Origin: Mollicutes bacterium
Lineage (GTDB): Bacteria; Bacillota_I; Bacilli_A; RF39; UBA660
NCBI GenBank assembly: GCA_012799635.1
Contig: JAAZKW010000010.1
Span: 3,308 to 67,307, forward strand
Direction: 5' to 3'
DNA: 64,000 nt
The stretch's first letter is position 1, and the number at the start of each line of letters is the position of its first letter. Shown one piece after another: positions 6,870-24,659 of the stretch. Made by a program: the position numbers and the translations under genes. The notes beneath the pieces are model-generated. The model saw nothing but the letters and a program-made list of their open reading frames with translations. It did no database searches and was not told the origin of the DNA.

Positions 6870-7422
6870 TTATGTTCTAGTTTTATTTATATAATCTAAA
6901 TATGCTTGAATTAGATCAAAATCTATTATATTTCCTGGAACTTCATCTGGATAAAAAAATTCTAGTCTTTTTGTTTCAAAATTCCCTTTTAAATTTTTTA
7001 TATCTTCTAAAGATATATCAGCCAAATACAAAGAAGTATTATTATAAACAATATCCCCGTTTTTCGGCTCGCTCCTGATAAAGTATCAATTAATTTTATT
7101 TTACTTGAATCTAACCTAATGCCCGTTTCTTCATAAGCTTCCCTAACAGCAGTGTCTTTTAAATCTTCCCCCAAATCTTGACAACCTCCTGGTAGTCCCC
7201 ATTTATTTCTATCAGTTCTTTCTTGCAATAATATTTGCCCTCTTCATTTCTTATAATAATAGCAGCACCAGTCTGTATAAAAGGAATATGGCTAATACGT
7301 TTATCTAAAGCCATTCTAAATAATACGGGGTATCCCCCATAATTTTTACTTAACTCTAATAACTCTTCTTAGGTTAAACTCATTACTAATTTTACAAATT
7401 CTTCATGAGTATAATTTCTCAT
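6870..7422 (-). pseudogene. Nudix hydrolase pseudogene (multiple frame disruptions)
   Basis: The Nudix box GLPGGCQDLGEDLKDTAVREAYEETGI lies in the 7007-7228 ORF. The N-terminal part (MRNYTHEEFVKLVMSLT*, then ...GAAIIIRNEEGK) and the C-terminal part (YFIRSEPKNGDIVYNNTSLYLADISLEDIKNLKG...) are in other frames. At least three lesions are present. Confidence 0.7.
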
Positions 7423-13956: not shown

Positions 13957-13970
13957 ATTATTTATTTTTT

Positions 13971-14038
13971 TATACCAAATAAAAATGTCTTATATTTAAG
14001 ACATTTAATGTCATTTATAGAGTCCTTGAAAGGATTTG
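13971..14038. repeat. Left direct repeat of the tRNA-Arg island: terminator hairpin plus a displaced 17-nt tRNA-Arg 3' fragment
   Basis: 68 nt. It shares perfect blocks tataccaaataaaaatgtctta (22 nt) and gtccttgaaaggatttg (17 nt), plus the aatgtctta/taagacatt hairpin, with 21112-21178. Confidence 0.85.
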
Positions 14039-14105
14039 CATTATTCCTATTCTAAACTGTTTTTTCTGTTCTTTTATTGATAATTTACCCTACAATGAAA
14101 CTATT

Positions 14106-16061
14106 TTATAAACCCCCTTTATAAAAATAAATTTTCATGGCATTATCTGAATATATTGGTTTAGACACATCAATATCCAAAACTTTACCAATATAATATA
14201 TTATGAATTGTGACGCAATAAGCAAATCAAATTCTGCTAAAATGCCATCATATTTACTTTCAATTAATATATAATCATTATCTAAATACTTTAACAGTTC
14301 AATTTCATATTTAGTAGTAGATTTTTGCTTAAAATATATTGAAAAATTATTTCCTAAATTTTCATAATTAATAAATCTTCCATGAGAAAAATTCTTTTTT
14401 TCATGAATTATACAATTAAATATGCCCGATTCAATAATTTTACTTTCTAAATCGTAACAAGCAGCATCAGTATAATCGCCTCTAAAAATATTCACCAAAT
14501 TATTCTTTTTTATTTTTTCTATTATTTTTTTATCTACTAATCCTTCTATTTGTCTGTCCCAATACATAATTGATTTTTTTATAAAATCGTTAATATCAAT
14601 ATCATAATTTACTTTCTCTAAATAATATTTTAAAAATATTGCTGCTGGGGCTACAGCTCCTTCGAACGAAAGAAATCCTCTCTCTTTTCCTTTATTAGAC
14701 GCAGTTCTATAACTTAATATATTTTCCTTCAAAAAATCTGTTTTTAATACTATATTTTGCAGTTCGCCTTTTGTAATTATATAAACATCCTTCTTATCAA
14801 ACTCTCTAGCGCTGCAAACAATATCATTAGTTGTTCCTGAATATGAAAACAAAATAATTTTATTAATATTACTATTATTTCTATATAATATATCTCTCGG
14901 ATATAATGAATAAGTATTACATCCATATAATGCATTTATTACTTTTGATGAAAAAATTGAACCAGCATATGATCCTCCTGTGCCTATAAATAAACAGTTT
15001 GTATCTTTACAAAAACCGATTTCTTCTAATTTTTTACATGCTGGGGAATTAACAGCATTAATAACTCTCTTTTCTAGATTGTTTATATTAATATTACATC
15101 TTTTTATTTTTTTTCTTTCAATAAGATCAAATTTATCACACGTACAAGTTTCATTTACTTTTTTTAATTTAAACAATGAATTTATGTGTCCTCTTGCGCC
15201 TATTTTTGAAACAACTTTAGCAGTGAGTTTGTTAGATTTCAAATACCACTTTTTTAATTTATGTGAATCATATTTAAAATCGTTTTTTATACTATCTTTA
15301 ATAACACTTGAAATAAATGCATCCCCCGCACCAGTAGAATCTACTACATCACCTTTTAATTCAAGCTCGAAATTATGAACTTTATTATTTGCTATAAATG
15401 TTGCACCATCCTCACCCCTTGTGATAGTCATTAAATTAGGGTTGATGATCTTATATAAGTCAATGTCGTTTTTTAAGTTTAACCTTTTTAAAAGGTAATT
15501 ACTTACTCTTTCATTAAAATTAATTATCTCAAATTTTTGCTTTAACTTTTTTATTATTTCATCATTTGACATATTTTCTAACTCAAAATACTGACCTAAA
15601 TCAATTATTTTTTTATTAATAGTATTATCAATTATTATTTGGTTCTTTATATTTAAATTGTCAAAAACTAAAATATCATCTGTTTTAATGTTAGCAAGAA
15701 CATAATTGGTTTCCAATAAGCTTTCATCATACCATTTTTTACTATTACAAAATGGGCATCTTTTTTTAGAAGTTAAGAACAATTTGCCGTTTTTTTCATA
15801 ATAAGATACATGAAAGCACCTCGTTCTAGTACCTTCAACAATTTTTATATTATCTATATCAACTTTAAGTTTTTCTAAACTTTTAATTGCAATTTTTCCC
15901 TGGTCATCATTACCACAACAAGCAAACACCGTAGTCTTCAACCCCATTTTTGCTAAATTAGCAATTATATTTTGTGAGGTCATACCACCATTTACGCCTA
16001 ATAATTTGTCATCTTTATAATAAAAATCTGTTACTAAATCTCCTATGCTTACTACTCTCAT
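14106..16061 (-). CDS. Fusion protein: PfkB-family sugar kinase (N-terminal) plus a double SIS phosphosugar isomerase/deglycase-like domain (C-terminal)
   Basis: 651 aa. The PfkB signature DSTGAGDAF lies near aa 240. The first SIS motif is FIGTGGSYAGS ... LFSYSGTTND. The second half, LESKIIESGIFNCIIHEKKNFSHGRF, resembles the GlmS/AgaS/FrlB C-terminal SIS domain. CxxC (CPFCNS) and CTC...C cysteine clusters are present. Confidence 0.75.
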   Translation of the reverse strand: MRVVSIGDLVTDFYYKDDKLLGVNGGMTSQNIIANLAKMGLKTTVFACCGNDDQGKIAIKSLEKLKVDIDNIKIVEGTRTRCFHVSYYEKNGKLFLTSKKRCPFCNSKKWYDESLLETNYVLANIKTDDILVFDNLNIKNQIIIDNTINKKIIDLGQYFELENMSNDEIIKKLKQKFEIINFNERVSNYLLKRLNLKNDIDLYKIINPNLMTITRGEDGATFIANNKVHNFELELKGDVVDSTGAGDAFISSVIKDSIKNDFKYDSHKLKKWYLKSNKLTAKVVSKIGARGHINSLFKLKKVNETCTCDKFDLIERKKIKRCNININNLEKRVINAVNSPACKKLEEIGFCKDTNCLFIGTGGSYAGSIFSSKVINALYGCNTYSLYPRDILYRNNSNINKIILFSYSGTTNDIVCSAREFDKKDVYIITKGELQNIVLKTDFLKENILSYRTASNKGKERGFLSFEGAVAPAAIFLKYYLEKVNYDIDINDFIKKSIMYWDRQIEGLVDKKIIEKIKKNNLVNIFRGDYTDAACYDLESKIIESGIFNCIIHEKKNFSHGRFINYENLGNNFSIYFKQKSTTKYEIELLKYLDNDYILIESKYDGILAEFDLLIASQFIIYYIGKVLDIDVSKPIYSDNAMKIYFYKGGL

Positions 16062-16249
16062 TTTAATATCCTCCTTTTGTCATTAAAAATATTACAAAAA
16101 TCGCTCAACGATTCATTGCCTATATAACACTGAATTATATTATGCATATTAAAAGTTAAAAATATAAGTTCGTCTTGAAATCTCTTAGATTTATCTGTTA
16201 TTTCTTTATTAAAATAACTTTCTTTTATCCACATATCAACCTCATTTAC

Positions 16250-17122
16250 TCAAACCGTTATGAAAGATAAAAACACATCCTTATCTTTTATTTCAATAAT
16301 ACAATTATAGCCTGACATAAAAGACTTTATTCTATTATAATTAAGAATATCATTATTATAACAATAAGACATTATAATTCTACCTATATCCAATAATGGC
16401 GAATTAAATCTTACTAACTCAAAGTCCAATATTTTAGGCATATCTTTTTCAAAAAGAATATTATCAGCAGCGAAATCGCCATGAGTCATAGAAATAGGTA
16501 TTTCATCGATTATATTTATTTCACTTAATAATGTTAATATTTTTTGGTGTTTTATTAATAACTCATAATATAGCTTGGGAGTGTTTTGATTTTTCTTATT
16601 GACTTTAGCTTCATATCTTTCAAACAATTTATCAATTGTTGGAATTTTTAAATATTCCCCTTTGTAAGGAGTTTTATCCACGTTTCTAAATAAATAATGC
16701 ATTTTAGCGCATTCTCGCCCAAGATAATATAATTGAACATCATTAATACTTTCTCTTAAAACATGATGACCACTCAAAAAACCTATTAATGCTAAACGAT
16801 CATTACCATAAGGCAATAATATTCTATTTTTCTTATCGGGTTCTATATACTCACAATTTAGATTATTGCAATACATAACATTTTCTATTCTTAAATTATT
16901 TAAAAGTTGATTATCCAAATAATCAGTAGAAAATTCATTGTTACTCATTTTACTCACTTTTCTTGAACTAAATATTTTTATAACATATTTGGTATTTGCT
17001 AAATCTCTACATATGAATTTTTTATTCATCCATCCACCAGACAATATATTAATATCGACAAGCTCAATTCCATAATTTTCATAGATTATAACCTTTAAAT
17101 TACTTTCCACCATTATCACCAT
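16250..17122 (-). CDS. Aminoglycoside/choline/fructosamine-kinase-like phosphotransferase (APH fold), ending at an in-frame TGA
   Basis: 290 aa with the Brenner motif HGDFAADNILF and ILDFE. The same frame stays open for 63 more codons after the TGA at 16250-16252 and ends in an ATGA overlap with the next gene at 16058-16061. Confidence 0.7.
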   Translation of the reverse strand: MVIMVESNLKVIIYENYGIELVDINILSGGWMNKKFICRDLANTKYVIKIFSSRKVSKMSNNEFSTDYLDNQLLNNLRIENVMYCNNLNCEYIEPDKKNRILLPYGNDRLALIGFLSGHHVLRESINDVQLYYLGRECAKMHYLFRNVDKTPYKGEYLKIPTIDKLFERYEAKVNKKNQNTPKLYYELLIKHQKILTLLSEINIIDEIPISMTHGDFAADNILFEKDMPKILDFELVRFNSPLLDIGRIIMSYCYNNDILNYNRIKSFMSGYNCIIEIKDKDVFLSFITV

Positions 17123-18071
17123 CTATATATTCCTTTGCTATTTTAATTATTTCTTCGATTGTTTTTCTATTTGAAAAACCTGCTGCATGTGTATGCCCAC
17201 CACCAGTTAATAATTCTGCTAATTTACTTGCATCTAATTTGTTTTTACTACGTATCTCACCCTTCTTTTTATTTCCAAAATCCATTATTACTATCATAAC
17301 ATCAATATCTTCTCTACTTAAAATAGCAGGAATACATTTTTTTGAAATATCAGAATAAGAGACTAAATTAAATAGTGGTTTTTTCATATCTAGAACTACA
17401 TAATGAAAGTTAGATACTATTAAATTATTATTTATATAAGAAATAATATCCATTTCGTTTTTTGTCTTTTCTAAATAAAATTTCTTTATCAAAAATTCAC
17501 CATCAACATCATTCTTTAATAATTTACTAACTATAGAAAATGTTTTACTTGAAGCAGCATTAGAAAATAAATTAGTATCACTTATTATTCCTGTAAAAAT
17601 AAGTTCAGATATTTTTTTATCACAATTAAGATCCAACTTTTTTATAATGTCATAAATTATTTCACAAGTAGAACTTGCACTATAATCACTTAAAATAAAT
17701 TCAGCATTTGTTATGTTACCATTATGATGATCAATATTAATCCTATAATTTGCATTATTATAATATTCTTCAATAGAATCAGGCAATCTTGAAGTTCTAT
17801 TTAAATCTATTGCTATAAAGGTAAAATCTTTTGATGTAATTTTTTGACACAATAAATCATTTAAATCAAAATAACTAATTTTATTTATACTTTCAGGTTC
17901 AATAAATGCTTTTACATTTTTATTGATTTTTTTTAAACCATACGCTAATGCTAAAGATGAACACATTGAATCATAGTCGGCATTTTTATGTCCAGCAATT
18001 ATAATATCATTTGACAAGTTTTTAAGTATATCTGCTAGCTTTTTTGTATTTTTTTTCTTAACATTTTTCAT
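17100..18071 (-). CDS. DHH/DHHA1 family phosphoesterase (NrnA-like paralogue)
   Basis: 323 aa with AGHKNADYDSMCSS (DHH motif I/II region), NIDHHNGN (DHH) and GGGHTHAAGF (DHHA1 GGGH). Confidence 0.8.
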   Translation of the reverse strand: MKNVKKKNTKKLADILKNLSNDIIIAGHKNADYDSMCSSLALAYGLKKINKNVKAFIEPESINKISYFDLNDLLCQKITSKDFTFIAIDLNRTSRLPDSIEEYYNNANYRINIDHHNGNITNAEFILSDYSASSTCEIIYDIIKKLDLNCDKKISELIFTGIISDTNLFSNAASSKTFSIVSKLLKNDVDGEFLIKKFYLEKTKNEMDIISYINNNLIVSNFHYVVLDMKKPLFNLVSYSDISKKCIPAILSREDIDVMIVIMDFGNKKKGEIRSKNKLDASKLAELLTGGGHTHAAGFSNRKTIEEIIKIAKEYIDGDNGGK

Positions 18072-20389
18072 TTTAATAATCTCCTTTTATATTCTCCTAC
18101 TTCACTATTGTCATTATAATCATGATTTTTTATTAAACACTCAATAATCTTTTTCCTATTTATATCAAATACTCCTATACTGTCTTTATAATCAATCTTA
18201 CCGTCTTTATTTTTCCATTCATTATCTTTCCAACTATAAGGACTGCTATAGCATAATCCATAAATATAATCAAAGAATAAATGAAAATCAACAGCTGCGA
18301 TATTATCTAAAAACATTTGGTCAATTCGATTAATTCCCGGATATCTAACGATACATATATTATTAACATCTATATCACTATCATATAAGGAATTAATTGC
18401 CAATTGTAATGTTTTCCCAGTTAAAACGTTATCATCAAAAAGGTCTACATTAGAATGCCTAAATACATTAGAATTAATTAGTCCGCCATATTCATTAATA
18501 TTAAATTTTCTTAAATCTATAAGTTGTTTATTTGAATATCCAGAAACTTCTTTATTGAATTTAAGAAGTAAAAGGCTTTCAATTGTATTTTTATCAACTA
18601 TCTTTGCAATTATTGGCAATTCGATTCCACCATAGCTTAAACCACATGCGTTAATATAATCATTAGTATTACCTCTTTTTTCTTTATATAAAGATACTGC
18701 CGTATAATTTTCACCAAAATTATCTATTTCACGATATGCTCTATAGTCTTTTGAATAATCCTTTTTTTCATTGCTTAATTGTTCTATCATAAAATTATCA
18801 TTAATTAATTCTTTTGACTTGCGTACTAAATTACACACTAGATCTTTATTTATTAAAACCTTTTCTTCAAAACATATTTTACTCATTATATCTTCTATTT
18901 CAAATAAGATATTATATATATCATTAAAATCTTTATTTTCTTTTGAAGAAATATCTAATAAAATATTATCGTTTACATTATTTGAAACAAGTTTATGATT
19001 CATTATAACTAATAATACATTCCTACAATTATCTAAAATTCCGAGCAACAATTTTTTGTTAATTAAAGAATTTATTTCCTTAGTATTTAATATAGCCTGC
19101 TCAGCATCATTTAAAAACCGAATGTAATTACGATGCCATTCTAACACATTATTTTTTGTTGTTATATCTCTGCCATTTAAACTTATTCTATTTGCTAGAA
19201 AGTAATAATATGTAGACGACCCCCTAAGAAGATAATTATTATCATCTCTTAACAAATAAATTAAATTACCATCTGCTTGTGAATTCCAAAATTCTTTTAG
19301 AGAATTATTTGATATAAGTTCCCATTCATACATAGGTATCAATATACTTCCGCTTGATTTATCAAACAAACCATCTATTCCATCATCGGTTTCGAAATTC
19401 TTATTTATTATTTCATTATATTTTTTTAATAATTTTTTCCTTCCTAATACAATCTTTTTTTCGGCAATTGCAAAATTCAATTTATAACTTAATATATCAG
19501 CTTTTTCTAAACAAACAGTCGGCAAAATTTTAGAATTATTTATTAGCTCGATTGTTGCAACAACACCTTTTAAAATGTTCCCATTTTCATCAAATATTGG
19601 GAAACAAGAATCTACTGAGCCGCTAGTTTTATCAACACTATAACCTTGTTGACAGTTTAACATTAAATAGTCGTTTCCATGAATGTCTCCGCAATCTCCA
19701 ACTCTCATCATCGAATTTTTAGGAACACCTATTATTTTTTCAACCCTTTCAATGGCCTTATCCTTAGTAGTTGTACCTATTTGAATGATAGTATTATCTT
19801 TATATATTCCCCTAGTTAAATAAATTCCTGCAAGCTTATTAGCAGAAATTATTTTTTCAAGAGCATCATTTACTTCTTTGATAATATTGGCATTTTTAAT
19901 TTTAAAAACTAGTCTAATATTAATAATAGTGTTAGTTTTTAAATCTTTTGAATATGTTATATCAAAATAATTGCTATTAATATTTTTAATTGTAGCATTT
20001 ATTTTCATTAATTGATTTAATTCATCTTTTGTAGTTATATAAGTATCTTGAGATAGAAATTCTTCGTATGAAGCACCATTACTATAAAAAAGTCGTGCCC
20101 CATCATTTGTTAATACATGAATTCTTTTAATATCATTATCTGTTATCCCAATTGAATTAGCAATAAAATCATATATATCATTTTTAAAATCGTTTAGTCC
20201 TGTTTCGCCACGCCCTGTTATAAAAACCACTGGCACTTTTCTCTTTAAAAGCTCAATAATTAATTTAATGGCCCTGTTATCTATTTTTTTTGATTTTTCT
20301 TCTGTTAAGGTCCCATTAATATCAAAACAAACGGCATTATACTTTTGTTCAAGTGATTTTTTAAAATTATAATATAGTTCATTTTTCAT
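18068..20389 (-). CDS. Multidomain protein: N-terminal Cof-type HAD-IIB domain, unassigned central region, C-terminal type I phosphoribosyltransferase-like domain
   Basis: 773 aa. HAD motif I is FDINGTLT (Asn at the D+2 position). Motif II is VVFITGRGETG and motif IV is VGDCGDIHGNDYLML. A PRPP-loop-like sequence, VDLFDDNVLTGKTLQLA, lies near aa 650. Confidence 0.65.
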   Translation of the reverse strand: MKNELYYNFKKSLEQKYNAVCFDINGTLTEEKSKKIDNRAIKLIIELLKRKVPVVFITGRGETGLNDFKNDIYDFIANSIGITDNDIKRIHVLTNDGARLFYSNGASYEEFLSQDTYITTKDELNQLMKINATIKNINSNYFDITYSKDLKTNTIINIRLVFKIKNANIIKEVNDALEKIISANKLAGIYLTRGIYKDNTIIQIGTTTKDKAIERVEKIIGVPKNSMMRVGDCGDIHGNDYLMLNCQQGYSVDKTSGSVDSCFPIFDENGNILKGVVATIELINNSKILPTVCLEKADILSYKLNFAIAEKKIVLGRKKLLKKYNEIINKNFETDDGIDGLFDKSSGSILIPMYEWELISNNSLKEFWNSQADGNLIYLLRDDNNYLLRGSSTYYYFLANRISLNGRDITTKNNVLEWHRNYIRFLNDAEQAILNTKEINSLINKKLLLGILDNCRNVLLVIMNHKLVSNNVNDNILLDISSKENKDFNDIYNILFEIEDIMSKICFEEKVLINKDLVCNLVRKSKELINDNFMIEQLSNEKKDYSKDYRAYREIDNFGENYTAVSLYKEKRGNTNDYINACGLSYGGIELPIIAKIVDKNTIESLLLLKFNKEVSGYSNKQLIDLRKFNINEYGGLINSNVFRHSNVDLFDDNVLTGKTLQLAINSLYDSDIDVNNICIVRYPGINRIDQMFLDNIAAVDFHLFFDYIYGLCYSSPYSWKDNEWKNKDGKIDYKDSIGVFDINRKKIIECLIKNHDYNDNSEVGEYKRRLLK

Positions 20390-20396
20390 ATTTTAG

Positions 20397-20913
20397 TCAC
20401 CTCCTTAACAAAAATTCTAAACTTTTAACCTTTCCATCTGTATCATTTGAAAGGTTTTTATCAAAAAGTAATCCATTTCCACCATTTTCATTCCATAATC
20501 TAACATTTTTCTTCAAATCGTCAATTAAAATTTGTCCATTTGGTATAACAACGTTATGTTTTTTTATACCTGGTGGAACAAAAATTACGGGGCAATAAAT
20601 TTTTCTATGTTCTCTTAAATATTCTATTTTAACTTTCATCTCATTTAAAGTATGTATTTTAGTTAAGATAGCAATTTTCTTTTTTAAGGATTCAAGCTCT
20701 CTAATTATTTCAACTGAATTATTTATTGAACTAGCTTCTCTTATTATATAATCCCATTCTTCTTGGTGAATATTAGTATAATCAAAATAATCATCAAATT
20801 CTTTTTTCATCTTTATGATTATGAAAACCAGCATTATATTTTCTTTCTAACATTCTTTCCTCAGAATCAAGTATAACCCCATCAAAATCAATATAAACAA
20901 AATCATCCATCAT
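20397..20913 (-). CDS. HAD-superfamily 5'(3')-deoxyribonucleotidase-like protein (NT5C family), interrupted by a frame change at an A6 tract
   Basis: ATGATG at 20908-20913 follows GGAGG and encodes MMDDFVYIDFDGVILDSE (DxDxV motif I), then stops at 20794-20796. The +1 frame (track ORF 20397-20834) carries the rest (...ILIDDLKKNVRLWNENGGNGLLF). The frames meet at GAAAAAAG (20802-20807 on the plus strand as T6). Confidence 0.6.
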
Positions 20914-20935
20914 ATCAATCCTCCGCCTCGGAAAT

Positions 20936-20944
20936 ATTATAACA
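20936..20944 (-). promoter_or_regulatory. Extended -10 element (TGTTATAAT) for the island operon
   Basis: The reverse complement of attataaca reads TGtTATAAT. It lies about 23 nt upstream of the GGAGG-ATG of the first island gene. No good -35 element was seen. Confidence 0.45.
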
Positions 20945-21111
20945 CACTCTTTTGAGATATTTGGTTTTTTATTTTATTTATATATCAACCCCATTCTTTT
21001 TTTATCAATACATATTGCTTTGCATAAGCATCTTTAATATTAATATGAATTGGCTACTTATTTTAATGATTTATTTCTTATTATAAGAACCCCATAAAGC
21101 GATACCACATT

Positions 21112-21178
21112 TATACCAAATAAAAATGTCTTAAATTATAAGACATTTATACTCACATGGCGTCCTTGAAAGGATTTG
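21112..21178. repeat. Right direct repeat of the tRNA-Arg island: terminator hairpin plus the genuine tRNA-Arg 3' end
   Basis: 67 nt, matching 13971-14038 (see the left repeat). The last 21 nt are part of the intact tRNA. Confidence 0.85.
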
Positions 21179-21234
21179 AACCTTCGACCTTCCCCTTAGG
21201 AGGGGGATGCTCTATCCAGCTGAGCTACAAGGAC
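21158..21234 (-). tRNA. tRNA-Arg (anticodon CCT)
   Basis: The reverse complement is GTCCTTGTAGCTCAGCTGGATAGAGCATCCCCCTCCTAAGGGGAAGGTCGAAGGTTCAAATCCTTTCAAGGACGCCA. It folds as a cloverleaf with anticodon loop CUCCUAA and an encoded CCA. Confidence 0.9.
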
Positions 21235-24034: not shown

Positions 24035-24601
24035 TTATTCTTTTATATCTTTATTTTTACTATATTGACAACCACAATAATCTTGTCTATACAAATTATA
24101 TTTTTTAGAATACTCTATTGACTTTTTATAACCATCTTCTTTTTTAAAATCACTATTCAAATATTTAATATTATACTTGTTCTCTAATTCTTTACCAATT
24201 TTATTAATTAAATTAGAATCTTTATAAGGACTCACAGTTAAAGTTGTAGTAAAATAATCAAAAGCTTTTTCTTTTCCAACTATAGCTGTTTTTTCAAGTC
24301 TTAATCCATAACATATATGACACCTTTTGCCTCCTTCTTTTTCATGTTCAAAACCTTTAACACTTTTTTCATACTCATTATTATCATAATCACAATCTAA
24401 GAAATCTAATTTATTAATAGCACTGTATTCTTCAATAAATCTAATTTGTTCCTTTTTCCTTTTAAAATATTCTTCTTTAGGTTCTATATTAGGATTATAA
24501 TAAAAAACAGTAATATTAAAATACTTTGTTAATCTTGCTATTACCTCTGTTGAACAAGGAGCACAACAAGAATGCAAAAGTAAATTATATCTTTTTTCCA
24601 T
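24035..24601 (-). CDS. queH: Epoxyqueuosine reductase QueH (DUF208)
   Basis: 188 aa with the N-terminal LLHSCCAPCS cysteine cluster and C-terminal YCGC, typical of QueH. Confidence 0.8.
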   Translation of the reverse strand: MEKRYNLLLHSCCAPCSTEVIARLTKYFNITVFYYNPNIEPKEEYFKRKKEQIRFIEEYSAINKLDFLDCDYDNNEYEKSVKGFEHEKEGGKRCHICYGLRLEKTAIVGKEKAFDYFTTTLTVSPYKDSNLINKIGKELENKYNIKYLNSDFKKEDGYKKSIEYSKKYNLYRQDYCGCQYSKNKDIKE

Positions 24602-24659
24602 TCAATTGATCTATAGTCTTTTTCATTATATTATTATAATTAATATTCATTTTTAACCT

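What the first reader, a model, noticed from the sequence alone, without database searches (positions are those of the whole stretch)
16058..16252. In-frame TGA in the APH-fold kinase gene, followed by 63 open codons ending in an ATGA overlap with the next gene
The kinase ORF stops at TGA (16250-16252) after ...FLSFITV. I translated the same frame codon by codon. It continues without any stop as VNEVDMWIKESYFNKEITDKSKRFQDELIFLTFNMHNIIQCYIGNESLSDFCNIFNDKRRILK. It ends at TGA 16058-16060, overlapping the ATG (16059-16061) of the PfkB-SIS gene. With the extension the protein would be 354 aa, the normal size for this kinase fold. The otherwise unexplained 188-nt gap inside a tightly coupled operon would also disappear. 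The likeliest explanation is a single TGG-to-TGA nonsense mutation, meaning recent decay. Alternatives are stop-codon readthrough, or a donor lineage that reads TGA as Trp.
Basis: seen in the sequence. Interest (0 to 1): 0.6.

Follow-up and report, generated by a model that had tools for sequence, protein, structure and literature searches.

The report
Recent nonsense mutation in kinase gene
A single G-to-A change has turned an invariant tryptophan codon of an uncharacterised small-molecule kinase into a TGA stop in one near-clonal strain of an uncultured biogas-reactor bacterium, while a sister strain still has TGG; this is an ordinary young pseudogene, not a recoding event.

Summary
The kinase ORF (17122..16250, minus strand) stops at TGA 16252-16250. 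The same frame then stays open for 63 codons to TGA 16060-16058, which overlaps the ATG of the PfkB-SIS gene.

All 28 homologues found are about 343-367 aa, run through to the C-terminus and have Trp at the TGA column. The seven homologue loci read at DNA level all have TGG there. The cut-off tail holds 15 of the family's 51 invariant columns.

The T at +16250 (TGA) stands in contigs of nine public metagenome runs from five studies (2016-2023), so it is not an assembly error. Two 2025 runs carry a sister strain with C there (TGG), and this is the only difference within the gene.

The genome uses the standard code:
- prfB is present.
- Only tRNA-Trp(CCA) was found.
- No selB or tRNA-Sec was found.
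- TGA ends 118 of 928 long ORFs.
- The only other in-frame TGA in the genome falls on a Ser/Gly column.

The same 7.1-kb tRNA-Arg island carries a +1 frameshift (A6) in its first gene. In the sister strain that frameshift is absent, but its 773-aa gene is frameshifted instead.

Verdict: a real, recent TGG-to-TGA nonsense allele in a decaying accessory operon. Interest is low.

The parts
16250..17122 (-). Kinase gene, first 290 codons plus the premature TGA. This part carries every catalytic motif of the APH fold: K49, H214-G-D216...N221 and D233-F-E235.
   Evidence: ORF list and translation. Pfam APH PF01636, 38.5 bits against a cut-off of 23.2, residues 24-256. Invariant columns.
16250..16252 (-). 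Premature stop codon TGA at the invariant Trp-291 codon. +16250 is polymorphic: T (TGA) in the window's lineage, C (TGG) in the sister strain.
   Evidence: W in 28/28 homologues. TGG in the homologue loci L010-L016. T in runs X1-X6, X9-X11; C in X8 (6395-nt contig, depth 15.7) and X13 (depth 2.2).
16058..16249 (-). The 63 codons cut off by the stop, plus the ancestral stop TGA 16060-16058 in an ATGA overlap with the next gene. In the model this is the rest of helix 280-298 and helices 301-304, 310-334 and 339-353.
   Evidence: Translation. Alignments A1/A2. 15 of 51 invariant columns lie here. AF2 model, pLDDT 91.2. The ATGA overlap is conserved in L010-L014.
16058..16234 (-). 58-codon ORF (M297 to the end) that gene callers list as a separate gene. 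Its ATG lies 15 nt behind the TGA and is preceded by GAGGT. Re-initiation is possible but not shown.
   Evidence: ORF list. Sequence aatGAGGTtgatATG. Called as a 58-aa gene in four independent assemblies.
14106..16061 (-). Downstream PfkB-SIS fusion gene (651 aa). It has its own AAGGAGG 8 nt upstream of the ATG. It was translationally coupled to the intact kinase through the ATGA overlap.
   Evidence: The same order and overlap are seen in homologue loci.
20397..20913 (-). First gene of the island, a small HAD/NT5C-like phosphatase (170-171 aa in homologues). Here it is split 39 + 137/145 aa by a +1 frameshift in an A6 run (minus strand 20807-20802). The sister strain X8 has A5, which restores ...HKDEKEFDDYFDY.... 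This is the second lesion in the same lineage.
   Evidence: Three-frame translation against the L010/L013/L015 proteins. Sequence. X8 lacks one base at 20802, while X1 and X3 match the window. The split is also called in the independent assemblies L004 and L005.
18068..20389 (-). 773-aa HAD-IIB fusion gene, intact in the window. Strain X8 has T4 instead of T5 at 18313-18309, which gives ...RIDQMF* and removes 80 conserved C-terminal residues. This is an independent lesion in the sister lineage.
   Evidence: HAD-IIB TIGR01484, 45.1 bits against a cut-off of 41.8.
13969..21234 (.). A 7.1-kb island that carries the operon. It is bracketed by direct repeats 13969-14038 and 21110-21178, and the right copy overlaps the 3' end of tRNA-Arg(CCT) at 21158-21234 (-).
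   Evidence: the repeat finder families D1 and D3, spacing 7140-7141. ARAGORN. The kinase is present in only 1 of the 21 other same-genus genomes searched, at 55% identity.

Best explanation
The TGA at 16252-16250 is a genuine premature stop. It arose from a single G-to-A transition in the third base of the invariant Trp-291 codon (TGG) of an uncharacterised APH-fold small-molecule kinase. The change happened recently in one near-clonal strain lineage of an uncultured, small-genome (1.15 Mb, about 25% GC) Bacilli bacterium from biogas fermenters. The organism uses the standard code, so RF2 should end translation there (inferred). The 290-aa product keeps the ATP-binding and catalytic motifs. 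It loses half of helix 280-298 and the two long C-terminal helices, which hold 15 of the family's 51 invariant residues, so it is most probably inactive (inferred, not assayed). The gene is one of at least two broken genes in a horizontally acquired 7.1-kb tRNA-Arg island in this lineage. The sister lineage carries a different break in the same operon. The operon therefore looks dispensable, or costly, and is being lost. A small fraction of ribosomes may still insert Trp at UGA through tRNA-Trp(CCA), and the 58-codon remnant may be re-initiated. Both would be side effects, not designed features.
For: 1. Ancestral state. 28/28 homologues (45-70% identity, 343-367 aa where complete) have W at the column and all run to the C-terminus. 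The seven homologue loci read at DNA level all have TGG and translate by table 11.
2. Real base, not an error. T at +16250 is seen in contigs of runs X1, X2, X3, X4, X5, X6, X9, X10 and X11, from five studies between 2016 and 2023. The 290-aa product is called on at least 8 contigs of Logan, JGI and ENA assemblies.
3. Polymorphism. X8 (depth 15.7, 6395-nt contig) and X13 have C, giving TGG. It is the only difference in 16058-17122, against about 110 substitutions tallied for X8 over 19 kb.
4. Standard code. prfB scores 414.8 bits against a cut-off of 370. Only tRNA-Trp(CCA) was found, with a 5-bp anticodon stem. TGA ends 118 of 928 long ORFs. No other long ORF in the window has a mid-gene TGA. 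The only other in-frame TGA in the genome (YhcG nuclease, C34) sits on an S/G/N/K column, not on W.
5. The tail matters. The AF2 model (pLDDT 91.2) places the TGA inside helix 280-298. The whole 354-aa model aligns over 340-357 columns with APH-fold kinases. 15 of 51 invariant columns lie in residues 291-333.
6. Decay context. There is a +1 frameshift in the island's first gene in the same lineage. There is an independent frameshift in the 773-aa gene of X8. The genome has no WYL regulator, although homologue islands have one.
Against: Loss of function is inferred, not measured. All catalytic residues lie upstream of the stop. The 63-codon tail has no further damage, but at 0.2-0.6% strain divergence only about 0.4-1 differences are expected in 192 nt, so this says nothing either way. 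UGA is the leakiest stop, and near-cognate reading by tRNA-Trp would rebuild exactly the wild-type protein, so the allele may be hypomorphic rather than null. The TGG allele rests on Logan contigs of two runs, one of them at depth 2.2 and 11 nt from a contig end, and raw reads were not available. The X8 indels are all in homopolymers of 5-6 bases, and the sequencing platform of X8 is not on record.
Confidence: 0.9

Rival explanations
1. Leaky stop (hypomorph). tRNA-Trp(CCA) reads UGA at a low rate and rebuilds the exact wild-type 354-aa kinase. The allele then lowers the dose rather than abolishing function, and may be maintained.
For: The inserted residue would be the ancestral Trp. Background UGA readthrough with endogenous 5-bp-stem tRNA-Trp(CCA) is visible in an E. 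coli reporter (PMC13092985). The tail is undamaged. The lineage has persisted from 2016 to 2023 across five studies.
Against: prfB is present. tRNA-Trp has a normal 5-bp anticodon stem, not the 4-bp form linked to efficient UGA reading (PMC13092985). No stable structure surrounds the stop (z +0.59). A second gene of the operon is frameshifted in the same lineage, so the pathway is broken anyway. An undamaged tail is expected by chance at this divergence.
Confidence: 0.08
2. Split enzyme. The 290-aa fragment and the 58-aa product of the re-initiated ORF (M297-K354) assemble into an active kinase.
For: GAGGT lies 4-5 nt upstream of an ATG that is 15 nt behind the stop. Gene callers list the 58-aa ORF in four assemblies.
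Against: The SD-like GAGGT and the ATG simply encode the conserved N-E-V-D-M. They are also present in the intact sister allele, so they were not selected after the break. Residues 291-296, including invariant W291, N293 and E294 in the middle of a helix, would be missing. No homologue is split.
Confidence: 0.03
3. TGA means Trp here, either because the organism uses code 4 or because the island came from a donor that does.
For: The organism belongs to a small-genome, low-GC Bacilli lineage, the class that also contains the code-4 Mycoplasmatales. The residue expected at the site is Trp.
Against: prfB is present and no tRNA-Trp(UCA) was found. TGA closes 118 long ORFs. The other Trp codons of the gene (W31, W298) are TGG. 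The other three island ORFs that are intact under table 11 have no in-frame TGA. All homologue loci use TGG and table 11. The sister strain has TGG. The other in-frame TGA in the genome is on a Ser/Gly column.
Confidence: 0.005
4. Sequencing or assembly error in the MAG.
For: The source is a fragmented MAG of 61 contigs, 88.65% complete.
Against: The same base is seen in nine runs from five studies and in JGI, ENA and Logan assemblies.
Confidence: 0.005
5. Selenocysteine codon.
For: It is an in-frame TGA with an open frame behind it.
Against: No tRNA-Sec was found. No selB scores over the cut-off. No hairpin lies behind the TGA. Homologues have Trp, never Cys.
Confidence: 0.002

Closest known systems
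Nonsense-mutation pseudogenes and strain-specific premature stops in bacterial accessory genes
   Same: A single base change at a conserved codon. An intact allele exists in a close relative. Downstream codons are still undamaged. Further lesions lie in the same operon.
   Different: Nothing essential differs. The only special point is that TGG-to-TGA is the one nonsense change whose near-cognate readthrough restores the native residue.
UGA-to-Trp reassignment (NCBI table 4; Mycoplasmatales and others) and 4-bp-anticodon-stem tRNA-Trp(CCA) readers of UGA (PMC13092985)
   Same: UGA stands at a Trp position, in a low-GC, small-genome member of the class Bacilli.
   Different: RF2 is present. There is no tRNA-Trp(UCA). 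The tRNA-Trp(CCA) has a 5-bp anticodon stem. TGA is used as a normal stop. It is a single site that is polymorphic within the species.
APH-fold small-molecule kinases: type II homoserine kinase (PDB 2ppq), YtaA/CotI (2q83), APH(9)-Ia (3i0o), AmiN (6sui), NahK (4ocj)
   Same: The full-length model matches the fold over 340-357 columns (E 5e-15 to 1e-11). The HGDxxxxN catalytic loop and the DFE metal site are present.
   Different: Identity is only 10-16%. Scores fall far below every NCBIfam equivalog cut-off, for example homoserine kinase at 52.8 against 271. The substrate is unknown. The family is confined to a conserved operon with HAD, DHH and PfkB-SIS genes in uncultured Bacilli.

Membership tests
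APH-fold phosphotransferase (Pfam PF01636) | Profile match above the curated cut-off | tested here: met
   38.5 bits against a cut-off of 23.2, residues 24-256.
APH-fold phosphotransferase (Pfam PF01636) | Catalytic loop H-x-D-x4-N and metal-binding D-F-E/G; ATP-binding Lys in the N-lobe | tested here: met
   H214, G215, D216, N221, D233, F234 and E235 are invariant. K49 is at least 90% conserved.
APH-fold phosphotransferase (Pfam PF01636) | Bilobal kinase fold with a C-terminal helical subdomain | tested here: met
   AF2 model pLDDT 91.2. Foldseek matches to 2ppq, 2q83, 3i0o, 6sui and 4ocj at probability 1.00, TM 0.62-0.75.
Homoserine kinase type II (NF003558 / TIGR00938) | Score over the equivalog cut-off | tested here: not met
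   52.8 against 271 and 23.1 against 255.9.
Nonsense-mutation pseudogene | Stop at a codon that is a sense codon in all relatives, with a homologous frame continuing behind it | tested here: met
   W in 28/28 homologues. The tail aligns to the end.
Nonsense-mutation pseudogene | The codon is read as stop in this organism | tested here: met
   prfB over the cut-off. 118 of 928 long ORFs end in TGA. Only tRNA-Trp(CCA) found.
Nonsense-mutation pseudogene | Intact allele in a close relative (derived state) | tested here: met
   TGG in X8 and X13.
Nonsense-mutation pseudogene | Loss of protein function | not testable with these tools
   Inferred from the loss of 64 residues that hold 15 invariant positions and three helices.
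Programmed stop-codon readthrough | Stop codon conserved among homologues | tested here: not met
   0 of 28 homologues have a stop there.
Programmed stop-codon readthrough | Stimulatory RNA structure or context behind the stop | tested here: not met
   MFE -13.8 kcal/mol against a shuffle mean of -15.5; z +0.59.
Genetic code 4 (UGA = Trp) | Loss of RF2, a tRNA-Trp(UCA), and many in-frame TGAs at Trp columns | tested here: not met
   The MAG is 88.65% complete and only 24 tRNAs were found, so the absence of a tRNA is not proof on its own.
Selenoprotein | tRNA-Sec, SelB, a SECIS hairpin, and Cys in homologues | tested here: not met

The most novel reading that the evidence does not exclude
The operon is a five-gene, WYL-regulated (in other hosts), tRNA-island-borne set of phosphate-handling enzymes with no match in PADLOC or the literature searched. 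It may be an undescribed costly accessory system, for example a nucleoside or sugar-phosphate based conflict or defence pathway. Three independent knock-outs in two sister lineages (kinase W291*, HAD +1, 773-aa -1) would then reflect selection for loss. In that picture the TGG/TGA site is a leaky switch, because UGA read by tRNA-Trp(CCA) rebuilds the native enzyme at low dose. That would be a standing example of the raw material for UGA-to-Trp capture in a code-11 relative of the Mollicutes.
Probability: 0.08. Interest if true: 0.55.

Novelty: new member of a known kind. Interest (0 to 1): 0.18.

Why it matters
For annotation, the 290-aa 'kinase' and the 58-aa 'hypothetical protein' that gene callers list in at least four assemblies are two pieces of one broken gene. 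The 39-aa and 137-aa calls upstream are two pieces of another. Neither should be counted as a gene family or a small protein. For biology, this is a clean, dated example (2016-2025) of strain-level decay of a horizontally acquired operon in an uncultured bioreactor bacterium. It shows that public metagenome runs can settle the question of error, recoding or mutation for a single base. It does not bear on genetic-code evolution, because the organism terminates at UGA.

Tried and rejected
- Code 4 for the window or genome: rejected.
- Genome-wide scan for other in-frame TGAs flanked by coding-like pieces. It gave 41 raw candidates. A codon-score filter and inspection left one real case, the YhcG/DUF1016 nuclease at C34:10380-11255. 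Its TGA column is S/G/N/K in relatives, not W. C45 is two adjacent genes.
- Selenocysteine: no selB, no tRNA-Sec, no hairpin.
- RNA-seq support: no RNA run holds the stretch, so expression and polarity could not be examined.
- PADLOC scan of the operon: only the WYL regulator of homologue loci matches. The core genes give nothing.
- PDB sequence search of the 773-aa protein: nothing significant. The PRTase-like motif DLFDDNVLTGKT near its C-terminus stays a by-eye observation.
- Literature search for the operon's domain combination: nothing relevant.
- An apparent circular joint, X6 21137->14000. I judged it an artefact: the laid stretch started at 14000, just right of the left repeat copy, so the contig's repeat part aligned to the right copy.
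- Short 'skips' joints with sides of 20-23 nt were taken as chance matches in AT-rich DNA.
Full report
**Observation.**
The minus-strand ORF 17122..16250 encodes 290 residues ending ...FLSFITV and stops at TGA 16252-16250. The same frame continues for 63 sense codons (VNEVDMWIKESYFNK...KRRILK). It ends at TGA 16060-16058, inside an ATGA overlap with the start of the 651-aa PfkB-SIS ORF 16061..14106.

Base composition alone predicts P = 0.0016 for 63 open codons. However, 66 of 928 long ORFs in this genome have an equally long open stretch behind their stop, usually because the next gene lies in the same frame. Openness by itself proves little; homology settles the matter.

**Homology of the tail.**
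A search of 5.8 billion proteins with the read-through product found the identical 290-aa form (P0002) and 28 relatives at 45-70% identity. Where complete, the relatives are 343-367 aa and cover 95-100% of the 354-aa query.

- In the alignment, every one of the 28 has Trp at the TGA column (TVW[IVL]NE[VI][DN]MW[IL]K).
- All of them run to the C-terminus. The two short ones lack N-termini, not C-termini.
- 15 of the 51 invariant columns (W291, N293, E294, M297, W298, K300, Y303, F304, K311, R314, F315, Q316, E318, T323, Y333) lie in the part behind the stop.
- Seven homologue loci were read at DNA level. The codon is TGG in all, the genes translate by table 11, and in L010-L014 the kinase stop overlaps the PfkB start in the same AAAATGA arrangement.

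Neither is met.

**Is the base real?**
The window is C41:3308-67307 of a 1.15-Mb, 61-contig MAG that is 88.65% complete.

- The 290-aa product is called on at least eight contigs of Logan, JGI and ENA assemblies.
- Fifteen public DNA runs were listed, mostly biogas-fermenter metagenomes from 2016-2025, and thirteen of them hold the stretch.
- Contigs of X1, X2, X3, X4, X5, X6, X9, X10 and X11 (five studies, 2016-2023) carry the window's T at +16250. Assembly error is therefore excluded.

**Polymorphism.**
Two 2025 runs have C at +16250, which is TGG on the coding strand. They are X8 (biogas, a 6395-nt contig at depth 15.7) and X13 (wastewater, depth 2.2). This is the only difference inside 16058-17122.

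Over 19 kb, the tally for X8 lists about 110 substitutions from the window, with 15 in the 6.4-kb contig. X1 and X3 each differ at a single position over the same 19 kb. With TGG in all outgroups and in the sister strain, TGA is the derived state. It is a G-to-A transition in a near-clonal lineage that has persisted for at least seven years.

**Genetic code.**
- No other long ORF in the window has a mid-gene TGA.
- Genome-wide, TGA ends 118 of 928 ORFs of at least 150 codons.
- prfB is present at 414.8 bits against a cut-off of 370.
- ARAGORN finds one tRNA-Trp, anticodon CCA, with a 5-bp anticodon stem, and no tRNA-Sec. Only 24 tRNAs were found, so absence is not proof.
- No selB scores above the cut-off.
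- RNA around the stop folds no better than shuffles (z +0.59).
- A scan for other in-frame TGAs between coding-like pieces left one case, a YhcG/DUF1016 nuclease on contig C34. Relatives have S, G, N or K at that column, not W.

Code 4, a code-4 donor, selenocysteine and programmed readthrough are therefore all rejected.

**Consequence for the protein (inferred).**
The protein is an APH-fold kinase (PF01636, 38.5 bits against 23.2). Its catalytic loop H214-G-D216...N221, metal site D233-F-E235 and Lys49 all lie upstream of the stop.

An AlphaFold2 model of the 354-aa form is confident (pLDDT 91.2, pTM 0.89). It places residue 291 inside helix 280-298, followed by helices 301-304, 310-334 and 339-353. 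The whole model aligns over 340-357 columns with type II homoserine kinase 2ppq, YtaA/CotI, APH(9)-Ia, AmiN and NahK. The tail is therefore an integral part of the fold.

Losing it, together with 15 invariant residues, very probably abolishes activity. This was not measured.

Two side effects are possible:
- Near-cognate reading of UGA by tRNA-Trp(CCA) would rebuild the native protein at a low rate. Background readthrough of this kind is seen in E. coli (PMC13092985).
- Re-initiation could occur at the ATG 15 nt downstream, behind GAGGT.

That SD-ATG merely encodes the conserved N-E-V-D-M, and it is identical in the intact allele, so it was not selected after the break.

**Context: a decaying island.**
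The gene lies in a 7.1-kb segment bracketed by direct repeats at 13969-14038 and 21110-21178. The right repeat overlaps the 3' end of tRNA-Arg(CCT). Only one of the 21 other genomes of the genus that were searched has the kinase, at 55% identity.

In homologue loci from uncultured Bacilli MAGs, the gene order is conserved:
1. WYL regulator.
2. Small HAD phosphatase (170 aa).
3. HAD-IIB fusion (731-778 aa).
4. DHH/DHHA1.
5. Kinase.
6. PfkB-SIS.

The window's genome has no WYL gene. Its small HAD gene is split by an extra A in an A6 run at 20807-20802. The catalytic DxDGV motif is in one frame and the rest of the enzyme in another. X8 has A5, which restores ...HKDEKEFDDYFDY... as in the homologues. 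The split is also seen in independent assemblies.

Conversely, X8 has T4 instead of T5 at 18313-18309. That gives an immediate stop and removes the last 80 conserved residues of the 773-aa protein.

In total there are three disruptive lesions in two sister lineages within one 7-kb operon. The simplest reading is relaxed selection, or selection for loss, acting on an accessory operon.

**Verdict.**
The phenomenon is an ordinary young pseudogene. The useful results are annotation corrections (290 + 58 aa is one broken kinase; 39 + 137 aa is one broken phosphatase) and the evidence that the operon as a whole is being lost. What remains uncharacterised is the operon itself. It has no PADLOC match apart from the WYL regulator, and nothing relevant turned up in the literature search.

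Noticed in passing
window 20397-20913 (A6 run at 20802-20807): The first island gene, a small HAD/NT5C-like phosphatase, is split 39 + 137/145 aa by a +1 frameshift in an A6 run. The sister strain X8 has A5 and an intact frame. Independent assemblies show the same split.
   Followed up: yes
window 18309-18313: Strain X8 has T4 instead of T5 in the 773-aa gene. This gives an immediate stop and removes 80 conserved C-terminal residues, so the sister lineage has its own lesion in the same operon. The evidence is a single Logan contig at depth 18, and the sequencing platform is unknown.
   Followed up: partly
window 13969-14038 and 21110-21178; tRNA-Arg(CCT) 21158-21234 (-): Direct repeats 7.14 kb apart bracket the operon, and the right copy overlaps the tRNA 3' end. 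This looks like an att-like scar of an integrated island. No ORF lies between the operon genes and the repeats that could be an integrase.
   Followed up: partly
own genome, contig C34:10380-11255 (locus L025/L026): A YhcG/DUF1016 PDDEXK nuclease gene has one in-frame TGA inside its N-terminal domain. Relatives have S/G/N/K at that column. This is a second nonsense pseudogene in the genome.
   Followed up: yes
window 18068-20389 (-), C-terminal part: The 773-aa HAD-IIB protein carries the motif NVDLFDDNVLTGKTLQ, conserved in L010, L013 and L015. It resembles the PRPP-binding loop of type I phosphoribosyltransferases. No Pfam or PDB sequence match supports this.
   Followed up: partly
loci L010, L011, L013, L015 against the own genome: Homologue islands start with a 196-aa HTH-WYL regulator, which matches PADLOC WYL models. 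The window's genome has none by tblastn, so the operon here may be unregulated.
   Followed up: partly
window 24591-24626: X8 has one base fewer at or next to the A6 run at the start of a QueH-like gene (24035..24601). That would move the start to an upstream ATG at 24626 rather than break the gene.
   Followed up: partly
window 21138-21156: A cluster of small indels and substitutions separates the two strain lineages (shared by X8 and X13). It lies in the intergenic stretch between the right repeat / tRNA-Arg and the operon start, possibly the promoter region.
   Followed up: no
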